Source: Planctomycetota bacterium (lineage in GTDB: Bacteria > Planctomycetota > UBA1135 > UBA2386). From it: 64,000 nt of DNA. Where the stretch lies: the NCBI GenBank assembly GCA_044230075.1, contig JBGARS010000016.1, forward strand, positions 533 through 64,532. The letters are read 5' to 3'. Shown piece after piece: positions 42,399 through 63,915 of the stretch (positions are counted from its first letter, which is position 1; the number at the start of each line of letters is the position of its first letter). The notes beneath the pieces are model-generated. The model ran no database searches. It was not told the DNA's origin and saw nothing but the letters and a program-made list of their open reading frames with translations. The position numbers and the translations under genes are program-made.

Positions 42399-43802
42399 TC
42401 AGCGGCCGAGCACCAGCGCCCGGCGTACGGCGGCGAGTGGCGCCTCGTCGTCGAACTGCACGTGCCCACCTTCGAGCCGCACGCCGAGGTCGCGCCACAG
42501 CGACTGCAGGTCGTGCGGTCCGGGTGAGCTGCGCATCGCCGCGTAGAGATCGGTCAGCACCGTCGTGCCGGTGGCGTCGTCGGCCAGGCGCAGCACTTCT
42601 TCGATCGGCCACATCGTGGTGATGTTGCCGCCGGCGGCGACGATCTTGCGCATCGCGTCCTGCAGCGAGCGGCGGTTGTCGGTCAGGCGGCGGATCTCGA
42701 CGTCGGCGCGCAGGCAGAAGATCGCGCCGCCGTAGTAGGTGCGGCCCCAGCTGTGGTCGTCGTCGAGCCCAGAAGCCCCTGCTGCCGCCAGCCCCTGGTC
42801 GTAGTCCTCGAGCATCGCTTGCCACACCTGCTGCTCGGTGACGCGGCCGGCACGCGCCTGCAGCAGCGGTTCGATGTAGGTCGCGCTGCCTTCTTCGAGC
42901 CAGTGGTGCTGCGGCGCCAGCGACGGCAACGCCAGGTGCACCATCTCGTGGAACAGCACCCAGTCGCCGCGGAAGTCGTCGGCAGAGAACCGCAGCGGCA
43001 CGTCGACGAAGATGCGCGCGCCGCCGCCGATGCCGCGCGCGGAGCCACCGGTGATCGTGCGCCGATGGCCGGGCGTCACCATCAGCAGCAGGCGTGGCAC
43101 CGGGAAGGTGCCGCAGTAGTCGCGGATCGAGGCGGCGGCGTCGGCGACCCAGGCGTCCAGCGCGCGAGCGTTCGCTTCGCGGCGTGGACCGAGTTCGGCG
43201 ACCTCGATCGCGACGTCGCCGGACTTCACGGTGCGAGGCGCGAACGTGCCGAAGGTGCAGGGCGGCAGCATGCCCAGATCCTGCAGCGACCCGGCCCAGC
43301 CGGTCGTTGTCCGCGGCGAGGCACACAGGAACGTCTGCGCGCCGGCGTCGACCTGCAGCGTGAACTGCGTGTCGTCGGTGCCGTCCGCCGGCCGCAGCAG
43401 GAACGCGCCGAGCGAGCCTGTGAACTGGCCGCCACGCCGCGCTGCCACCTCGATGTCGTCGATGGCCGCAGAGGCCTCGCGGGCACGGAAGCGCCAGTGC
43501 AGCTCGCGCGGCAGCGCCGCGGTGGGAACGGCGAACGCGCCGTCGACCGGTTGCAGCCGCTGCGAGCCACCGTTGCCGATCGCTTCGACGTCGGCGAGGA
43601 ACGGTCGCGCTGCTGGCGCCACGGTGACGCGCAGCGACGGACCCGCCGGCAGCGTCAGCCGCACACCGAGGACCGCACCGTCCTCGGGCAGCGTGACGCG
43701 GTAGGCCCAGCCATCGCTGGGCGTGCTCGGCGCTGGGGCCGAGCAGGCGCTCCCGAGCAGCAGCGCGCAGGCGGCGGCGCGGAAGCGCGGGGTGGCGGAC
43801 AC
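42399..43802 (-). CDS. M61-like zinc metallopeptidase, probable lipoprotein
   Basis: LLGSAC lipobox-like; HEMVH...WLEEGSATY gluzincin motif; YYGGA..CL..D..IR. GTG start 7 nt after the upstream stop. Confidence 0.78.
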   Translation of the reverse strand: MSATPRFRAAACALLLGSACSAPAPSTPSDGWAYRVTLPEDGAVLGVRLTLPAGPSLRVTVAPAARPFLADVEAIGNGGSQRLQPVDGAFAVPTAALPRELHWRFRAREASAAIDDIEVAARRGGQFTGSLGAFLLRPADGTDDTQFTLQVDAGAQTFLCASPRTTTGWAGSLQDLGMLPPCTFGTFAPRTVKSGDVAIEVAELGPRREANARALDAWVADAAASIRDYCGTFPVPRLLLMVTPGHRRTITGGSARGIGGGARIFVDVPLRFSADDFRGDWVLFHEMVHLALPSLAPQHHWLEEGSATYIEPLLQARAGRVTEQQVWQAMLEDYDQGLAAAGASGLDDDHSWGRTYYGGAIFCLRADVEIRRLTDNRRSLQDAMRKIVAAGGNITTMWPIEEVLRLADDATGTTVLTDLYAAMRSSPGPHDLQSLWRDLGVRLEGGHVQFDDEAPLAAVRRALVLGR

Positions 43803-43809
43803 GGACCGA

Positions 43810-44226
43810 TCAGTGCTTGACCGGGACCGCGCAGCCGCCCTTGCCCTTGCACGAGTTCTTGCCGGCGCAGCCTGCGTCACCGGCCTTGCAGCCGCCCTGG
43901 CCCTTGCACGAGTTGGTGCCCTTGCAGCTGTGGTGCGCGGCGGTCGCGCAGCCACCCTTGCCCTTGCAGCTGTTCTTGCCGGCGCAACCGGCGTCGCCGG
44001 TCTTGCAGCCGCCCGTGCCCTTGCACGAGTTCAAGCCCTTGCAGGCGTTCTTGTCGGTGGTGGCGGCCGGCGTGGGGTTGGCGGCCGGCGTCGGCGCGGC
44101 GTGCGGGGCGGGCGTCGTGGTCGGCGCCGCTTCCTTCTTGCTGCAGGAGGTCAGCGACGTGGCGGCGCCGCCGAGCAGCAGGCCCGAGACGGCGGCGGAG
44201 AGGAGGACGGACTTGGTGGTCTTCAT
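43810..44226 (-). CDS. Cys-rich lipoprotein resembling BufA2-type bufferin precursors
   Basis: MKTTKS...SLTS|C lipobox; Pro/Ala/Thr linker; four C[KA]GxNSCKGxGGC units (12 Cys); HH and terminal H. Confidence 0.85.
   Translation of the reverse strand: MKTTKSVLLSAAVSGLLLGGAATSLTSCSKKEAAPTTTPAPHAAPTPAANPTPAATTDKNACKGLNSCKGTGGCKTGDAGCAGKNSCKGKGGCATAAHHSCKGTNSCKGQGGCKAGDAGCAGKNSCKGKGGCAVPVKH
43830..44043. repeat. 117-nt (39-aa) internal tandem duplication in the Cys-rich gene
   Basis: gcagccgcccttgcccttgcacgagttcttgccggcgca at 43830 recurs as gcagccacccttgcccttgcagctgttcttgccggcgca at 43947. Confidence 0.85.
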
Positions 44227-44258
44227 GTGAGTAGTGGTTGCGAGAGAGATGCGCACAT

Positions 44259-44390
44259 CGTCGGATGGACGAAGGGGCGCGAGTTACGACCGGTTTCCCG
44301 ACTCGGTCCCGGCGGCGCGGCAATATTCGGCGCGGGACAGGTCGCCGTCCAGCGGAGAGTCGTAACACCGGCCCGCTTCTCTCCACGTCG
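44259..44390. promoter_or_regulatory. Twin divergent motif GTCGTAAC-N19-CG(A/T)CG, possibly ECF-sigma promoters
   Basis: Minus strand: GTCGTAAC 44290-44283, CGACG 44263-44259. Plus strand: GTCGTAAC 44359-44366, CGTCG 44386-44390. Confidence 0.55.
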
Positions 44391-44404
44391 TCCCGCTCGC
44401 CGCC

Positions 44405-46099
44405 ATGAATCGTTTCCTTCGTCGTGCGCTGCTCGGCGCTCTGTCCGGTCTCGTCGCCAGCCCGATCCTGGGTCTGACCGTCGGTCGAGACACGGGGTCT
44501 TGGGTGGCGTTCCTCCTGGCGATCGTGGTCGCCAGCGCCCTGGCGCTGCCGCGGCGCCCGGCCGGCCGGCCGCGGCCCGAACTGCTGATGGAGGTCGCCG
44601 CGCTCGGTGTGCCGCTGTGGGCGCTGGTGGACGTGGTGCTGGTGCCGCTGCTGGCCGGCGATGCGCCGCGCTGGACCGCCGCGGCGATGCGAGACGTGTT
44701 CCCGGCGCTGGCCGGCTGGATGCTGTTCCAGGCGGCGGTCGGCCTCGTGCTGCATCTCGTCGATGGCCTCGCCGAGCGTTGGCTCGGCGCCGAGTTCGTG
44801 CCGGCGCCGCCGGTCGCTGGGGCGCCGCAGCGCATCCTCATTCTCGGCGGCGGCTTCGCCGGCGTGTCGACGGCCGAACACCTCGAACACCGGTTCGGCG
44901 CCAGCGCCGAGGTCGAACTGACCCTGGTCAGCGAGACCAACGCGATGTTGTTCACGCCGATGCTGGCCGAAGTCGCCGCCAGCAGCCTCGAGGCGGCGCA
45001 CATCACCAGCCCGCTGCGCACGGGGCTGCGGCGCACCGAGGTCGTGCGCGGCCGCGTCGTCGGCGTCGACCTCGAGCAGAAGGTCGCGCGCGTGCAGCTG
45101 GCGGTCGGTGACGAACGCGAACTCGCCTACGACCACGTCGTGTTCGCACTCGGCGCGGTGTCGAACTACCTCGGCATGGCCGGTGTCGAGGCGCACGCGT
45201 TCGACTTCAAGTCGATCGCCGACGCGATGGCGATCCGCAACCACGTCATCGACTGCTTCGAGCGCGCCGACGGCGAACAGGATCCGGTCGAGCGGCGGCG
45301 GCTGGTCACGTTCGTGGTCGCCGGCGGCGGCTTCGCCGGCGCCGAGCTGGCCGGCGGCCTCAACGACTTCACGCGCGGCATGCTGGCGTTCTATCCGCGC
45401 GTGCCGCGCGAGGAGCTGCAGGTCGTGCTGGTGCATGGCCGCGACCGCATCCTCAACGAACTCAGCGAACCGCTGGCGCTGCACGCGCAGCAGCGCATGA
45501 CCGAGCGCGGCGTCACGTTCCGGCTGGGCACGCGCCTGAAGGACGCGGATGCCGAGCGGGTCGTGCTGTCCGATGGCGAGGTCGCGTCGCGCACGCTGGT
45601 GTGGACCGCGGGCACGGCGCCGAATCCGCTGCTGCGCGCGCTCGGCGTCGAGGTCGACAAGCGCGGTGCCGTGCTGACCGACGCGATGATGCGGGTGAAG
45701 GGCCGCAGCGACGCGTGGGCGGTCGGTGATGCGGCATCGATCCCGAACGCCGCCACCGGCACGTCGTGTCCGCCGACGGCGCAGTTCGCGATCCGGCAGG
45801 CGGCGCAACTGGCGCAGAACCTGCAGGCGACGGTGCGCGGCCGCGCGCTGCGCCCGTTCCGCTTCGCGCCGCTCGGTGCTTTGTGCGTGGTCGGCCACCA
45901 CACCGCGTGTGCGGAGATCAAGGGCCTGCGCTTCTCGGGCCTGCTCGCGTGGGTGATGTGGCGTGGCATCTACCTCAGCAAGCTGCCGAGCATCGAACGC
46001 AAGGTGCGCGTCGTCGTCGACTGGACCATCGAGCTGTTCTTCCCGCGCGACATCGTGCAGACGATCGACCTGGCGCCGCGCACCGGGAGCAGCCGATGA
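44405..46099 (+). CDS. ndh: Type II NAD(P)H dehydrogenase-like flavoprotein with N-terminal membrane domain
   Basis: ILILGGGFAG, LFTPMLAEVA, YDHVVFALGA, VVAGGGFAGAELAG, WAVGDAA, PPTAQFA; about 125-aa hydrophobic N-terminus. Confidence 0.85.
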   Translation: MNRFLRRALLGALSGLVASPILGLTVGRDTGSWVAFLLAIVVASALALPRRPAGRPRPELLMEVAALGVPLWALVDVVLVPLLAGDAPRWTAAAMRDVFPALAGWMLFQAAVGLVLHLVDGLAERWLGAEFVPAPPVAGAPQRILILGGGFAGVSTAEHLEHRFGASAEVELTLVSETNAMLFTPMLAEVAASSLEAAHITSPLRTGLRRTEVVRGRVVGVDLEQKVARVQLAVGDERELAYDHVVFALGAVSNYLGMAGVEAHAFDFKSIADAMAIRNHVIDCFERADGEQDPVERRRLVTFVVAGGGFAGAELAGGLNDFTRGMLAFYPRVPREELQVVLVHGRDRILNELSEPLALHAQQRMTERGVTFRLGTRLKDADAERVVLSDGEVASRTLVWTAGTAPNPLLRALGVEVDKRGAVLTDAMMRVKGRSDAWAVGDAASIPNAATGTSCPPTAQFAIRQAAQLAQNLQATVRGRALRPFRFAPLGALCVVGHHTACAEIKGLRFSGLLAWVMWRGIYLSKLPSIERKVRVVVDWTIELFFPRDIVQTIDLAPRTGSSR

Positions 46100-47487
46100 A
46101 CGCCCATCCCTCCCTGTTGCTGCAACTGGGCGTTGCGACGCTGATCGGCTGCCTCGGCGGCGGTGCCTGCCTCGCGCTCGGCTACGCCGACGCGGTCTCC
46201 GGTCCGATCGCCGGCGCCGGCGGTGGACTCGTGTTCGCGTGGCTGCTGCAGGGTCGCGCGATCGACGCTGGCGAAGGGCTGATCTGGGGCCTCGCGTTCG
46301 CGTTCTTGTGGTGGCTCGCGCTGCCGGCCGGCCTGCTCGCCGCCGCGTCGGCCGGCGAGGCCGCCTGCCAGCTGTCGACCGTGCGCACGCAGGTGCCGAT
46401 GCTGATCGGCTACCTCGTGTGCCTCGGCGCACCGCTCGGACTGGGCATGGGGCTGTGGGCGTCCTGGCGGGGGAGTTCGGGGCGCAGCGTTTTCCGCGTC
46501 TCGCGCGCGCTGGTCGTCGGCGGCCTCGCCGGCCTCGTCGGCAGCCGCGTGTTCGCGTCGGTCGGCGACTCGATGCTGTCGCCGCTGCCCGGCGGCGATG
46601 CCAGCCGCGTGCTGCAGCACTTCGCTACCGCGATCGCGATCGGTGCCGTCTACGGGCTGCTGTTCCAACGCGCCGTGCGCGGGCTCGGCTCCTGCATGGG
46701 TTGGGGCATGGCCTACGGCATGTTGTGGTGGTGCCTCGGCCCGATGACGGCGAGCCCGCTGCTGCGCGGCGAAGCCATCGACTGGAGCGTGGATCGCGCG
46801 GCGTCGGCGTACGGGCTGTTCGTCGCGCATGTGTTCTTCGGCCTGCTGCTCGGGCTGCTCTACGAGGCGGTCGACAAGGTCTGGCAGGCGCTGTTCGTCG
46901 AGTCGGACCCGCTGCACCGCGAACCGGAAGGCATCGGCACGCGCTTCACGCTGGCACTGCTGTGGGGCGCGGTCGCGGGGCTGGCCGGCGGCCTCGTGTT
47001 CAGCCTGCCGATGCTCGACACCGGCATCCTGCCGTACGTCGCGAGCCTCGCCGGCGGCACCAGCGAATGGCTCGGCTTCGGCCTGCACCTGTCGATCAGC
47101 GTGCTGATCGGCATGCTCTACGGCGCGCTGTTCGCACGGCAGACGCCGGACCTCGGCATCGCCTTCGGCTGGGGCCTGCTGTACGGCTTGATCTGGTGGT
47201 ACCTGGGGCAGCTGACCCTGTTTCCGCACCTGCTCGGCGAAGCGTTCGACTGGTCGATCCTCGGCGCCAGCACCGCGCTGCCGTCGCTGGTGGGGCATCT
47301 CGCGTATGGCGCGACCACGGCGGGCGTGTTCGTCGCGTTCGAGTTGTGGTACGGCCGACGCCGCGCCGTCGATCCGCGGTATCGGGCCCGGGTGGCGCGC
47401 GCGCGGCGTGGTGGCGGCAGTCCCGCGGCGGCGCTGTGGGTGTTCGCGCTGGGACTTGGCGTGCTGCTGCCTATCGTGCTGGGCTGA
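46096..47487 (+). CDS. Polytopic membrane protein with three internal repeats and TM His pairs
   Basis: WG..(Y/F)(G/A)..WW repeated three times; His in QHF/AHV (repeat 2) and LHL/GHL (repeat 3). ATGA coupling to ndh. Confidence 0.8.
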   Translation: MNAHPSLLLQLGVATLIGCLGGGACLALGYADAVSGPIAGAGGGLVFAWLLQGRAIDAGEGLIWGLAFAFLWWLALPAGLLAAASAGEAACQLSTVRTQVPMLIGYLVCLGAPLGLGMGLWASWRGSSGRSVFRVSRALVVGGLAGLVGSRVFASVGDSMLSPLPGGDASRVLQHFATAIAIGAVYGLLFQRAVRGLGSCMGWGMAYGMLWWCLGPMTASPLLRGEAIDWSVDRAASAYGLFVAHVFFGLLLGLLYEAVDKVWQALFVESDPLHREPEGIGTRFTLALLWGAVAGLAGGLVFSLPMLDTGILPYVASLAGGTSEWLGFGLHLSISVLIGMLYGALFARQTPDLGIAFGWGLLYGLIWWYLGQLTLFPHLLGEAFDWSILGASTALPSLVGHLAYGATTAGVFVAFELWYGRRRAVDPRYRARVARARRGGGSPAAALWVFALGLGVLLPIVLG

Positions 47488-47495
47488 CGGGCGGC

Positions 47496-47520
47496 GGAAC
47501 GGTTGTTCTGCGGGCCCGTA
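47496..47520 (+). promoter_or_regulatory. ECF-type promoter candidate upstream of doxX
   Basis: GGAAC (47496-47500)-N16-CGTA (47517-47520). Confidence 0.45.
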
Positions 47521-47558
47521 TCAGCCGCGCCTCCACTCTCCAACCCTCGGTTCGTCGC

Positions 47559-48035
47559 ATGAGTTCTTCGCAAGGTCGTCTGCAGTCTGTCTACCGCCTG
47601 ATGGATTCGGTGTGCACGCCACTGGGCCAGCTGGTCGCGCGCATCGTGTTCGGCCAGGCCTTCCTGATCACCGGCTGGGGCAAGCTGCACAACCTCGACG
47701 GGGTCGTGAAGTTCTTCACCGACCTCGGCATCCCGGCCGCCAACGTGCAGGCGCCGTTCGTCGCCGGCGTCGAGTTCGTCGGCGGCATCTTCCTGCTGCT
47801 GGGACTCGGCACCCGCATCTCGGCGCTGTTCCTGGCCAGCACGATGGTGGTCGCGCTGTTGACTGCGCATCGCGCCGACTTCGAACCGGCACTGCTGTTC
47901 GACAAGAGCTTCGCCGACATCACGCCGTTGCCGTTCCTCGTCGCTCTGCTCTGGCTGATGGCGAAGGGTGGCGGGACGGTGAGCGTGGACCGACTGTTCG
48001 CATCGCGCTCGGGCGGCGGCTCGGGCGGGAAGTAA
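47559..48035 (+). CDS. DoxX-family membrane protein
   Basis: VARIVFGQAF...GWGKL, F..LGIP, VEFVGG.FLLLGLGTR, G.G.VSVD. Confidence 0.9.
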   Translation: MSSSQGRLQSVYRLMDSVCTPLGQLVARIVFGQAFLITGWGKLHNLDGVVKFFTDLGIPAANVQAPFVAGVEFVGGIFLLLGLGTRISALFLASTMVVALLTAHRADFEPALLFDKSFADITPLPFLVALLWLMAKGGGTVSVDRLFASRSGGGSGGK

Positions 48036-61836: not shown

Positions 61837-63915
61837 ATGCAGACACCTCGCTCGCCCACGCCCGCAACCAACGCGGTGAACACGGATGTCCTGGTGCTGG
61901 GCGGCGGCTTCGCCGGCACGCGCTGCGCGCAGCGGCTCGAACGGCTGCTGCCACGCGACTGCACGATCAAGCTGGTCAGCAGCGAGAACTACTTCGTGTT
62001 CCAGCCGCTGCTGCCCGAGGTCGTCGGCGCCAGCCTGGACCCGGCGCACGTGATCAGCCCGCTGCGCCACATGCTGCGGCGCACGCAGGTCGTGCGCGGT
62101 GAAGTCAGCCAGATCGAGCTGGCGCCGGCCGGGGCGGAGCACGCCGGCACCGTGACCGTGCGGGCCGATGGCGTCGCGCACCCGGTCGTGCTGACGGCTC
62201 GGCACATCGTGCTGGCGCTGGGCTCGGTCGTCGATGTCAGCCGCATTCCGGGCATGGCGGAGCAGGCGTTGATGATGAAGAACGTCGCCGATGCGCTGGC
62301 CCTGCGGCACGCGATCATCCATCGACTCGAGTGCGCCGTGCTCGAACCCGACCCGGCGGAACGGCAGGCGTTGTTGACGTTCGTCGTGGTCGGCGGCGGC
62401 TTCTCCGGCATCGAGACCGCGGCGGAGATGCACGACCTGGTGCACGGCGCGATGAAGTTCTTCCCGACGTTGGCGGCGGAGGCGAAGCGGGTCGTCTGCG
62501 TGCACTCCCGCGAGCGCATCCTGCCGGAGCTGGACGCGCGGCTCGGTGACTACGCCTTGCGGCTGCTGCAGAAGCGCGGCATCGAGTTCCGCCTCGAAGA
62601 GCGCACGCGTGCCGCATCCCGCGACGGGGTCTATCTCGGCAACGGCGACTTCATCGCCGCACGCACGATCGTCTGCACGATCGGCAACGCGCCGCACCCG
62701 ATCCTCGAGGGCGTCGCCGCGGCAGTGGAGGGCCGCCTGCCCACGACCGAGCATCTGCGACTGCAGGGCCATGAGAACGTGTGGGCGATCGGCGACTGTG
62801 CGCGGATCGCGGATGGCCGCGGCGGCACCTGCCCGCCGACCGCGCAGTTCGCGACGCGCCAGGGCGACGTCGTCGGGCGCAACATCGCCGCGAGCCTGCG
62901 CGGTGCGCCGCTGCAGAAGTTCCGGCACAAGAGCCTCGGCCAGCTGGCGACGCTCGGTCACCAGAACGCCGTCGCCTCGATCGGCAGGCTGCGGCTCTCC
63001 GGGTTCCTGGCCTGGTGGCTGTGGCGCACGATCTACCTGATGAAGCTGCCGCGCTTCGACCGCAAGTTGCGGGTGATGATCGACTGGACGCTCAACCTGT
63101 TCTTCCCGCGCGACCTCAACGCGCTCGATCTCGCGCCGACGAACCGGCACGCGACGATCCACCTCGAAGCCGGCGAGACCTTGTTCCACCAGGGCGATCC
63201 GAGCGCGGCGTTCTACGTGGTGCAGTCGGGCCGCATGGAGTTGATCCGCTGCGACGAAGCCGGCTGTGTGCTCGGCAACGACCAGCTCGGCCCGGGGGAG
63301 CACTTCGGCGAAGGCTCGCTGCTGCGCGGCGGCGTGCGTTCGACGACCGCGATCGCGGTGGAGTCGACGACGGTGTTGTCGTTCCCGGCGCGGGAGTTCC
63401 GGACGCTGACCGACAACTTCCTCGGGCTGCGGCGCCTGCTCGAAGCCACGTCGCGGCGCTTCCAGCCGGCGGCGAGCATCATTCCGGCCTGGGTGCCGAA
63501 GGCGCGCCTGCAGGTGCCGGTCGGCGAGGTGATGAGCAGTCCGGTCGTGACGATGCCGCAGAACGCGACGCTCGAGCTGTGCCTTGCCGAGTTCGTCGCG
63601 CGCAAGTTCAACTGCTTCCCGCTGGTCGGCACCGGCGGCCGGTTGATCGGGGTGGTGACCAGCACCGACCTGTTCGGCGCGTTGCGGCGCGACGTCGATC
63701 TCGCGCAACCCCTGCAGGCGATCGCCACCGCCGACGTGCAGTGCCTGCGCGTCACCGACCCGATCGAACGCGCCGTCGAGGTCATGCGCCGCCGCAACGT
63801 GAAGCACGTGATCGTCACCGACGCGGAGCAGCGCGTGGTCGGGCTGGTGTCGATGACGGACATCCTGCGATTGATCCTCGCTTCACCGAGGCCGGCGCAC
63901 GCCGGTCGCGCCTGA
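61837..63915 (+). CDS. Type II NAD(P)H dehydrogenase-like flavoprotein fused to cNMP-binding and tandem CBS domains
   Basis: VLGGGFAG, FQPLLPEV, VVVGGGFSGIETA, WAIGDCA; LFHQGD..FYVVQSG..FGEGSLL..RST; two CBS repeats. Confidence 0.88.
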   Translation: MQTPRSPTPATNAVNTDVLVLGGGFAGTRCAQRLERLLPRDCTIKLVSSENYFVFQPLLPEVVGASLDPAHVISPLRHMLRRTQVVRGEVSQIELAPAGAEHAGTVTVRADGVAHPVVLTARHIVLALGSVVDVSRIPGMAEQALMMKNVADALALRHAIIHRLECAVLEPDPAERQALLTFVVVGGGFSGIETAAEMHDLVHGAMKFFPTLAAEAKRVVCVHSRERILPELDARLGDYALRLLQKRGIEFRLEERTRAASRDGVYLGNGDFIAARTIVCTIGNAPHPILEGVAAAVEGRLPTTEHLRLQGHENVWAIGDCARIADGRGGTCPPTAQFATRQGDVVGRNIAASLRGAPLQKFRHKSLGQLATLGHQNAVASIGRLRLSGFLAWWLWRTIYLMKLPRFDRKLRVMIDWTLNLFFPRDLNALDLAPTNRHATIHLEAGETLFHQGDPSAAFYVVQSGRMELIRCDEAGCVLGNDQLGPGEHFGEGSLLRGGVRSTTAIAVESTTVLSFPAREFRTLTDNFLGLRRLLEATSRRFQPAASIIPAWVPKARLQVPVGEVMSSPVVTMPQNATLELCLAEFVARKFNCFPLVGTGGRLIGVVTSTDLFGALRRDVDLAQPLQAIATADVQCLRVTDPIERAVEVMRRRNVKHVIVTDAEQRVVGLVSMTDILRLILASPRPAHAGRA

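What the first reader, a model, noticed from the sequence alone, without database searches (positions are those of the whole stretch)
44259..44390. Identical promoter-like motif on both strands of a divergent intergenic region
Seen: GTCGTAAC-N19-CG(A/T)CG points toward the Cys-rich gene on the minus strand and toward ndh on the plus strand, with the same spacing. Established: GTAAC...CG(T/A) pairs resemble ECF-sigma promoters, and Caulobacter bufferin genes are ECF (SigF)-controlled. The spacer here is about 2 nt longer than typical. Inference: one factor co-induces both arms, linking them as a single system.
Basis: partly seen in the sequence, partly recalled or inferred. Interest (0 to 1): 0.68.

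Follow-up and report, generated by a model that had tools for sequence, protein, structure and literature searches.

The report
Bufferin-gene promoter box, misread as -35
The repeated GTCGTAAC box is real and conserved, but it is most likely the -10 (not the -35) of an ECF-sigma-type promoter that drives copper-binding "bufferin" precursor genes and a DoxX gene in this planctomycete family. The copy facing the NADH dehydrogenase gene lacks a correctly spaced -35, so co-induction of that gene is not shown.

Summary
GTCGTAAC-N19-CG(A/T)CG occurs twice in the window and nowhere else in the 5.3 Mb genome.

The reading needs correcting. In 49 upstream regions of BufA2-like genes from this planctomycete order, the TCGTAA box lies 61-93 nt before the ATG. 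In 19 of the 49 it is preceded at 16 (±1) nt by GGA(C/T)C (0 antisense; shuffles mean 0.55). The promoter is therefore GGA(A/C/T)C-N16-CGTA(A/T)C, a classical ECF-type geometry.

- **Minus arm:** GGGACC at 44310-44305, CGTAAC at 44288-44283.
- **Genome scan:** a matrix trained only on other genomes was run over this genome. The four best hits outside genes, and the only ones among them with an identifiable target, were three bufferin promoters and a site just upstream of doxX, at 47496-47525.
- **Relatives:** three genomes carry bufA2 and doxX divergently, with back-to-back promoters of this type.
- **Plus arm (before ndh):** the -10-like box is excellent and conserved, but the only -35-like pentamer is 5 nt too far away. 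Its function is unresolved.

"One system" is supported by gene order, because Acidobacteria have bufA2-bufB-bufC-doxX-ndh-partner in one row. The sigma factor is unidentified, NrsF is absent, and no transcript data could be reached.

The parts
44305..44310 (-). -35 element GGGACC of the promoter of the bufA2-like gene (core GGACC = 44309-44305)
   Evidence: It lies 16 nt upstream of CGTAAC. G(G/A)TCCC is conserved in all four orthologous loci (A3). The same GGA(C/T)C-N16-CGTA arrangement is found in 19 of 49 bufA2 upstream regions. -35 PWM score 8.2 at N16, against -1.5 or lower at the other spacings tested from N13 to N23.
44283..44290 (-). GTCGTAAC box of the minus arm, the -10 element (CGTAAC = 44288-44283).
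   Evidence: Invariant in four orthologues. The TCGTAA box sits 61-93 nt before the ATG in 15 homologous upstream regions. PWM hit of 16.7, among the top intergenic hits in the genome.
44259..44263 (-). In the revised model it lies in the 5' leader.
   Evidence: It is 19 nt downstream of GTAAC, outside the 14-17 bp ECF spacer range. It is only loosely conserved.
43810..44229 (-). 12-Cys BufA2-like bufferin precursor (lipoprotein signal peptide). A stand-alone copy.
   Evidence: NF050166 Cu_RiPP_BufA2, 53.2 bits in two stretches, below the cut-off of 60. A paralogue with bufB and bufC lies on contig C144.
44322..44327 (.). Conserved AT-rich centre (AATATT) of the intergenic region, at the symmetry centre of the two boxes.
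   Evidence: Alignment A3 and coordinates. Role unknown. One possibility is the -10 of a weak sigma70-like minus-directed promoter paired with TGGACG (44352-44347). The consensus scan does not call it.
44347..44352 (.). Conserved GTCCAG island, 6-7 nt upstream of the plus-arm box.
   Evidence: Invariant in four orthologues. Function unknown.
44359..44366 (+). GTCGTAAC box of the plus arm, 38 nt before the ndh ATG. It is a -10-like element without a correctly spaced -35.
   Evidence: -10 PWM score 14.9, above the 99.999th percentile of the genome. The best -35 score at N15-17 is -3.3, and GGGACA (44334-44339) sits at N21. The box is GTCGTAAC in G001 and GTCGTAGC in the 72% orthologues.
44386..44390 (+).
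   Evidence: Not conserved. G001 has CGTGA at N18, and L059 and L060 have no CGW at that place.
44405..46099 (+). NDH-2 (type II NAD(P)H dehydrogenase) with an N-terminal membrane extension.
   Evidence: Pyr_redox_2 7.6e-46 and NDH2_C. Full-length orthologues occur in Planctomycetota, Acidobacteriota, Chloroflexota and Verrucomicrobiota; partial matches (about residues 171-553) in Actinomycetota.
46096..47487 (+). 463-aa membrane partner protein (weak DUF1440 match).
   Evidence: It follows ndh in the loci of all phyla that were long enough to show it.
47496..47525 (+). Second full promoter of the same type, GGAAC (47496-47500)-N16-CGTATCAGC (47517-47525), in the 71-nt gap before doxX.
   Evidence: PWM 18.7, the second best site in the genome. 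Sequence. Identical layout in G001 (A4). GGAAC-N16-CGTATCAG occurs exactly once per genome in 5 genomes of 3 genera, each time before doxX, with 0 control hits.
47559..48035 (+). DoxX / HvfX-like gene (BufD-like).
   Evidence: PF07681 2.1e-22. NF050144 HvfX family, 69.8 bits, below the cut-off of 80. ATG at 47559.

Best explanation
The intergenic region carries an ECF-sigma-type promoter for the stand-alone bufferin precursor gene. It is GGGACC (44310-44305), then 16 nt, then CGTAAC (44288-44283), with a predicted start near 44276 and a leader of about 47 nt. This promoter type, GGA(A/C/T)C-N16-CGTA(A/T)C, marks a small dedicated regulon in this planctomycete family. The regulon comprises bufA2-type precursor genes (three promoters in this genome) and the DoxX/HvfX-like gene, which has its own copy at 47496-47525. 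By analogy with sigmaF in Caulobacter, an unidentified ECF sigma factor, presumably released under copper or thiol stress, would switch these promoters on (inferred, not shown). The layout seen in relatives, and possibly the older one, is bufA2 <- P P -> doxX. In this window the NDH-2 gene and its membrane partner lie between the divergent region and doxX. The plus-arm GTCGTAAC box before ndh is a conserved, very good -10-like element. Its only -35-like pentamer is displaced by about 5 nt, so it is not a canonical copy of the promoter. It may be an activator-dependent or weak promoter, an operator, or a decaying duplicate.
For: Shown by sequence comparison:
- Both boxes are unique in the genome and conserved in orthologues.
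- In 49 bufA2 upstream regions, GTAAC occurs 14 times in sense against 4 antisense, with about 0.5-1 expected. TCGTAA sits at a fixed -61 to -93 from the ATG.
- GGA[CT][CG]-N15-17-CGTA occurs in 19 of 49 regions in sense and 0 antisense. Shuffles give a mean of 0.55 and a maximum of 3. The spacer is exactly 16 in 16 of the 19.
- The paralogous bufA2-bufB-bufC operon of this genome has GGGACC-N16-CGTATC.
- A PWM was trained on 16 promoters of other genomes only. Its best hits outside genes in this genome are the C33 contig end by the bufA2BC neighbourhood (20.2), doxX (18.7), C125:32967 (16.8, no gene called downstream, not followed up), this minus arm (16.7) and bufA2BC (16.3). An ECF sigma gene follows at 15.9. 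Seven other sites scoring 16.7-18.4 all fall inside called genes.
- Back-to-back promoters of this type flank divergent bufA2/doxX pairs in G189, G018 and G003.
- The geometry and letters match ECF rules: AAC-type -35, CGT(A) -10, spacer 14-17 (PMC5758882).
- Bufferin operons are ECF-controlled in Caulobacter.
Against: - There are no transcript or TSS data.
- The sigma factor is not identified. None of the 64 sigma-70-family genes has a matching promoter upstream.
- The -35 of most bufA2 promoters is GGACC or GGATC rather than the canonical GGAAC.
- The 8-10 nt after the -10 are also conserved (nnGCGCCC, CAGCCGCGCC). That could equally mark an operator overlapping the start site.
- The PWM is built from few sequences and also scores some intragenic sites highly.
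- The plus-arm box is conserved, yet the promoter model does not explain it.
Confidence: 0.7

Rival explanations
1. One reading: GTCGTAAC is the -35 and CG(A/T)CG, 19 nt downstream, is the -10 of two identical divergent promoters. Both are read by one sigmaF-like ECF sigma, which co-induces the bufferin gene and ndh.
For: GTAAC(C) is the -35 of Caulobacter sigmaF promoters, which control bufferin operons. Both arms share box and spacing exactly. CGWC is kept at the same distance on the minus arm in G001.
Against: - The spacer is 2 nt beyond the sigmaF spacing and outside the 14-17 bp ECF range.
- The '-10' is not conserved on the plus arm and only loosely on the minus arm.
- A much better conserved partner, GGA(C/T)C, lies 16 nt upstream of the box in 19 homologous promoters.
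- Many homologous promoters have CGTATC, CGTAAG or CGTAGA, which still work as a -10 but destroy 'GTAAC' as a -35.
- There is no NrsF in the genome.
Confidence: 0.08
2. The two 16-nt arms (GTCGTAAC-nn-sCGsCCC) are operators for a DNA-binding regulator, either a repressor or an activator. It binds both sides of the intergenic region, possibly with looping over about 76 bp, and so couples the two arms. On the minus arm the operator overlaps the -10 and start site of the ECF-type promoter.
For: The inverted repeat is 16 nt at 81%, symmetric about a conserved AT-rich centre (coordinates). Conservation extends 8 nt beyond the -10 on both arms in four genomes. The plus-arm box is conserved without a -35. 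The flanking GT of GTCGTAAC is kept in this locus on both arms but not in bufA2 promoters of other genera.
Against: Each arm has no internal dyad or direct repeat, as one-component regulators usually need. The extended motif GTCGTAACNNGCGCCC is not enriched elsewhere in 339 genomes (21 hits against 14 for the reversed control), apart from the orthologous loci. No regulator gene lies next to the locus.
Confidence: 0.15
3. The plus-arm box is an evolutionary leftover of an inverted duplication of the bufA2 promoter, or of the former doxX promoter of a bufA2<>doxX layout. It was inactivated by a roughly 5-nt change in spacer length, and ndh is transcribed from another, unrecognised promoter.
For: The plus arm reads GGGACAGGTCG...GTCGTAAC and the minus arm GGGACCGAGTCG...GTCGTAAC, so the ends are similar but the plus spacer is 5 nt longer. 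Relatives have bufA2<>doxX with two full promoters, and doxX here kept its own promoter.
Against: The box and its flanks are among the best conserved islands between genomes whose intergenic regions are otherwise about 50% identical. That argues for present function. CGTAG variants occur in apparently functional -10 elements.
Confidence: 0.25

Closest known systems
Caulobacter vibrioides sigmaF (ECF) regulon controlling the buf1 and buf2 bufferin operons (PMC3511200, PMC11626156)
   Same: A dedicated ECF-type promoter precedes bufferin precursor operons and DoxX-type genes. The regulon is small. A GTAAC pentamer is present in the promoter.
   Different: The consensus here is GGA(A/C/T)C-N16-CGTA(A/T)C, against GTAACC-N16-CGAA in Caulobacter. 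The GTAAC letters lie in the -10, not the -35. No NrsF anti-sigma is present in the genome. No sigma gene lies next to the cluster. The phylum differs (Planctomycetota).
Bacillus subtilis sigmaW-type ECF promoters (TGAAAC-N16-CGTA; PMC5758882)
   Same: Same geometry (16-nt spacer) and the same CGTA -10. The doxX copy has a GGAAC -35 with the canonical AAC.
   Different: Most bufA2 copies have GGACC or GGATC (GAC/GAT instead of AAC). The organism and target genes are unrelated. No membership in a defined ECF group can be claimed without the sigma factor.
Buf2 (BUF_6/12Cys) bufferin gene clusters as surveyed in PMC12452194
   Same: A 12-Cys precursor with a signal peptide. The MNIO and DUF2063 genes lie elsewhere in the genome. 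DoxX is the accessory gene. Stand-alone precursor genes are common.
   Different: That survey found no sigma or anti-sigma genes in Buf2 clusters and 'additional conserved genes in extremely low proportions'. Here a promoter consensus defines the regulon instead. An NDH-2 plus membrane-partner pair is attached, and it also lies in line with bufA2BC-doxX in Acidobacteria.

Membership tests
ECF (group 4 sigma-70) dependent promoter | -35 element with a GGAAC/AAC-type motif | tested here: met
   GGAAC before doxX (47496-47500). GGGACC before the bufA2-like gene. GGA(A/C/T)C in 19-22 homologous promoters. The GAC/GAT variants depart from the strict AAC.
ECF (group 4 sigma-70) dependent promoter | -10 element of the CGT type | tested here: met
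   CGTAAC (minus arm), CGTATCAGC (doxX, bufA2BC) and CGTA in all 19 promoters. CGTA is the sigmaW-type -10.
ECF (group 4 sigma-70) dependent promoter | Spacer within the narrow ECF range (14-17 bp), constant across members | tested here: met
The spacer is 16 nt in 16 of 19 and 17 nt in 3 of 19. Minus arm and doxX: 16.
ECF (group 4 sigma-70) dependent promoter | Transcription start about 10 nt downstream of the -10, and dependence on an ECF sigma factor | not testable with these tools
The organism is an uncultured MAG.
ECF (group 4 sigma-70) dependent promoter | The cognate sigma gene usually carries the same promoter (autoregulation) | tested here: not met
   No matching motif lies upstream of any of the 64 sigma-70-family genes. 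GGAAC-N16-CGTATCAG occurs only before doxX in 20 genomes. The nearest is ECF C175 with GGAAC-N16-CGAATC.
Caulobacter-type sigmaF/NrsF (bufferin) regulon | Promoter GTAACC-N16-CGAA | tested here: not met
   GTAAC is followed by CGWC only at N19. The conserved partner lies upstream, so GTAAC is part of the -10.
Caulobacter-type sigmaF/NrsF (bufferin) regulon | NrsF (DUF1109) anti-sigma factor present | tested here: not met
   PF06532: 0 matches in the genome (93% complete). The control run did detect it in Caulobacter.
Caulobacter-type sigmaF/NrsF (bufferin) regulon | Targets are bufferin precursor operons and DoxX | tested here: met
   The four best-scoring hits outside genes that have an identifiable target are three bufA2 promoters and doxX.
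Buf2 (BUF_6/12Cys) bufferin cluster | Precursor with signal peptide and 6 or 12 conserved Cys | tested here: met
   139 aa with a lipoprotein-type signal and two CKG-repeat halves. NF050166 at 53.2 bits in two stretches, below the single-model cut-off of 60.
Buf2 (BUF_6/12Cys) bufferin cluster | Adjacent MNIO (DUF692) and DUF2063 genes | tested here: not met
   They are not in the window. They are present with a paralogous precursor on contig C144.

The most novel reading that the evidence does not exclude
A lineage-specific ECF regulon of an uncultured planctomycete family, defined here only by its promoter (GGAAC/GGACC-N16-CGTAwC), controls Buf2 bufferin precursors and DoxX. Through the conserved -10-only box it also controls the membrane-tethered NDH-2 module in a second, factor-dependent way, for example an activator or a second sigma that bridges the 5-nt-displaced -35. 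Periplasmic copper buffering and a dedicated quinone-reducing module would then be induced together.
Probability: 0.2. Interest if true: 0.55.

Novelty: new member of a known kind. Interest (0 to 1): 0.4.

Why it matters
Outside Caulobacter, how Buf2 bufferin genes are regulated is unknown. The published survey found no sigma or anti-sigma genes in Buf2 clusters. A sharply defined promoter consensus hits essentially only bufferin precursor genes and doxX in a genome. That gives a practical handle for three things:
- listing the regulon in uncultured Planctomycetota;
- searching for the cognate sigma factor by co-occurrence;
- testing whether the widespread NDH-2 plus membrane-partner module belongs to the copper-stress response.

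It also corrects the expected transcription starts by about 22 nt, which matters for any reporter or RACE design.

Tried and rejected
- **Other TCGTAAC clusters in the genome.** C100:17440-17560 is a palindrome, GTTACGAAACGT...ACGTTTCGTAAC, at the start of a 198-aa gene. It is a different, operator-like feature.
- **Genome-wide GTAAC sites upstream of genes.** There is no family of GTAAC-N16-20-CGWC promoters.
- **Extended motif GTCGTAACNNGCGCCC in 339 genomes of the order.** 21 hits against 14 for the reversed control. Only the orthologous loci are meaningful.
- **Autoregulated sigma gene.** None was found. Two candidates were seen only by neighbourhood: C96 (its orthologue lies next to bufA2BC in G154) and C33:79136 (3 kb upstream of bufA2BC by synteny with G003). 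C175 has GGAAC-N16-CGAATC. None can be assigned.
- **A -35 for the plus arm.** No conserved pentamer lies at N15-17 in any of four orthologues. Readings as sigma54 or as a MerR-type long spacer were considered by eye and do not fit.
- **A sigma70-type promoter.** The consensus scan found none. TGGAC(G/A)-N16-18-AA(T/G)ATT on the minus strand is conserved but weak (8 of 12).
- **Rfam.** No RNA family matches in 44100-44520.
- **Metagenome scan for more orthologous loci.** It returned only an identical contig and Acidobacteria-like loci.

Full report
**1. The observation**

The window carries GTCGTAAC-N19-CG(A/T)CG at 44259-44290 (-) and at 44359-44390 (+). Shuffles of the window give 0.00 matches. 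The whole 5.3 Mb, 70% G+C assembly contains no third copy. GTAAC itself is rare, with 503 sites on both strands.

The boxes lie in the 175-nt gap between two divergent genes:
- A 12-Cys BufA2-like bufferin precursor at 43810-44229 (-). It matches NF050166 at 53 bits, below the cut-off of 60.
- An NDH-2 with an N-terminal membrane extension at 44405-46099 (+). It is followed by a 463-aa membrane protein and a DoxX/HvfX-like gene.

The genome is an uncultured Planctomycetota MAG. The two boxes are the core of a 16-nt, 81% inverted repeat, centred on a conserved AATATT.

**2. Conservation in orthologous loci**

The same divergent gene pair exists in a congeneric MAG (NDH-2 89% identical) and in two MAGs at 72%. 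An alignment of the four intergenic regions (A3) shows these conserved islands:
- GGGGCGCrrGTTACGAC, the minus box plus 9 nt.
- G(G/A)TCCC.
- An AT-rich centre.
- GTCCAG.
- GTCGTA(A/G)CA(C/G)CG, the plus box. It has A to G in the 72% pair.

**3. What the box is**

BufA2-like genes are common in this order: 41 of 201 genomes. I took 49 of their upstream regions.
- GTAAC occurs 14 times in sense and 4 times antisense. Two of the antisense copies are the ndh-facing arms. About 0.5-1 would be expected.
- The core TCGTAA lies at a fixed -61 to -93 from the ATG in 15 regions.
- Anchoring on it revealed no conserved partner downstream. It did reveal a conserved GGGACC/CGGACC/GGATC/GGAACG 16 nt upstream.
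- The pattern GGA[CT][CG]-N15-17-CGTA is found in 19 of 49 regions in sense and 0 antisense. Dinucleotide shuffles give a mean of 0.55 and a maximum of 3.
- The spacer is 16 nt in 16 cases and 17 nt in 3. The -10 ends 41-86 nt before the ATG.
- Variants of the -10 are CGTAAC, CGTATC, CGTAAG and CGTAGA. These keep CGTA but not GTAAC.

This is the geometry and lettering of ECF promoters: an AAC-type -35, a CGT(A) -10 and a 14-17 bp spacer (PMC5758882). In the window the promoter is therefore GGGACC (44310-44305), then N16, then CGTAAC (44288-44283).

The genome's canonical bufA2-bufB(MNIO)-bufC operon on contig C144 has GGGACC-N16-CGTATC.

**4. The regulon**

I trained a two-block weight matrix on 16 promoters from other genomes. 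This locus, its orthologues and this genome's paralogue were excluded. I then scored all 10.6 million positions of the genome. The best hits that lie outside genes were:

| Site | Score | What follows |
|---|---|---|
| C33:82891, 39 nt from a contig end | 20.2 | By synteny with G003 this is the bufA2BC neighbourhood |
| Window 47517 | 18.7 | doxX |
| C125:32967 | 16.8 | No gene called downstream; not followed up |
| Window 44288, the minus arm | 16.7 | bufA2-like gene |
| C144:30558 | 16.3 | bufA2BC |
| C175 | 15.9 | An ECF sigma gene, with GGAAC-N16-CGAATC |

Seven sites inside called genes score in the same range (16.7-18.4), so the matrix alone is not fully specific.

The doxX site reads GGAAC (47496-47500)-N16-CGTATCAGC (47517-47525). 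It lies entirely in the 71-nt gap after the membrane-protein gene, 33 nt before the ATG at 47559. It is identical in layout in the congener but absent from the 72% orthologue, where doxX abuts the preceding gene (A4).

GGAAC-N16-CGTATCAG occurs exactly once per genome in 5 of 20 related genomes, always before doxX. The reversed control gives no hit.

In G189, G018 and G003 a bufA2-like gene and doxX are directly divergent. Their short intergenic regions hold two back-to-back promoters of this type. In G003 the doxX copy has AGTATC in place of CGTATC. In this window, ndh and its partner lie between the divergent region and doxX, and doxX has the promoter directly in front of it.

**5. The plus arm**

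The box before ndh scores 14.9 as a -10, above the 99.999th percentile. The best -35 score at N15-17 is -3.3. The only -35-like pentamer, GGGACA at 44334-44339, sits at N21. In G001 a TGAAAC sits at N20. The 72% orthologues have nothing.

ECF sigma factors tolerate little spacer variation, so this is not a canonical copy. Because the box and the GTCCAG island 6-7 nt upstream are conserved across genomes whose intergenic regions are otherwise diverged, some function is likely. I cannot decide between three options:
- an activator-dependent or otherwise non-canonical promoter for ndh;
- an operator, given the 16-nt inverted repeat;
- a decaying duplicate.

**6. One system?**

Independently of promoters, gene order links the arms. 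The NDH-2 and its membrane partner travel together in five phyla. In Acidobacteria (L063, L065 and six of the 15 Acidobacteria-like metagenome contigs) the order is bufA2-bufB-bufC-doxX-ndh-partner on one strand. The published survey of MNIO clusters reports no sigma or NrsF genes in Buf2 clusters and hardly any additional conserved genes.

**7. What is not known**

- **The sigma factor.** NrsF is absent. None of the 64 sigma-70-family genes has the motif upstream. Candidates by neighbourhood only are the C96 operon (small secreted Cys-rich protein, ECF, Cys-rich anti-sigma), whose orthologue lies beside bufA2BC in G154, and C33:79136.
- **The inducing signal.** Copper or thiol stress is inferred from Caulobacter.
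- **Other explanations.** Rfam and the sigma70/terminator scans give nothing in the region.

**8. Verdict**

Three corrections apply:
- The -35 and -10 are re-assigned.
- The predicted starts shift by about 22 nt.
- The second true promoter of the plus side sits before doxX, not before ndh.

This is a new member of a known kind: an ECF-type bufferin regulon with a different consensus, in a different phylum, and without NrsF. Interest is moderate.

Noticed in passing
genome contig C96:30306-31717 (not in the window); orthologue in L120 (G154) 1487-2860: An operon of a roughly 90-aa secreted, extremely Cys-rich protein (CC..C.C..C..GGC..C..C..C..C motifs), an ECF sigma factor, and a membrane anti-sigma with CC/CxC motifs. 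In G154 the orthologous trio lies immediately downstream of bufA2-bufB-bufC. It may be a metal-sensing regulatory module and is a candidate regulator of the bufferin promoters.
   Followed up: partly
genome contig C33:82863-82899 (39 nt from the contig end): The best genome-wide match to the bufferin promoter matrix is GGAGGACCGC-N16-AGGCGTATCAGC, at the very end of a contig. By synteny with G003 this contig leads into the bufA2BC neighbourhood. Contig C144 starts with a second, different promoter copy. A further precursor copy may have been lost in an assembly break at the repeated bufA2 genes.
   Followed up: partly
genome contig C100:17440-17570 (L001 5940-6070): A perfect 12-nt inverted repeat, GTTACGAAACGT...ACGTTTCGTAAC, with 22 nt between the arms. 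It lies at the start of a 198-aa minus-strand gene, with a third TCGTAAC 70 nt further on. It looks like the operator of a local regulator and is unrelated to the bufferin promoter.
   Followed up: no
L063 and L065 (Acidobacteria); L123, L124, L126-L128, L135 (metagenome contigs): bufA2-bufB-bufC-doxX-ndh-membrane partner all on one strand. The tethered NDH-2 pair is an accessory of Buf2 bufferin clusters in Acidobacteria. This is not mentioned in the published surveys that were read.
   Followed up: partly
window 42399-43800 (-): A 467-aa protein with an HEMVH zinc-peptidase-like motif and no Pfam or NCBIfam match lies directly downstream of the bufA2-like gene. It is also found at the orthologous loci L058 and L060, and it would be co-transcribed from the promoter described here.
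   Followed up: no
genome contig C182:81399 (-), about 270 nt upstream of an MsrA-like gene; C133:13540 (+), 55 nt before a 177-aa secreted protein; C22:14325 (+), before a 766-aa secreted protein: Weaker matches (14.3-15.5) to the promoter matrix. MsrA is of interest because methionine sulfoxide reductases belong to the Caulobacter sigmaF regulon (from my own knowledge, not checked in the papers read). These were not verified in relatives.
   Followed up: no
window 61855-63141 (+): A second NDH-2 paralogue (44% identical to the first) lies in the same window. It has no GTAAC or CGTA-type promoter match nearby in the scans made.
   Followed up: no
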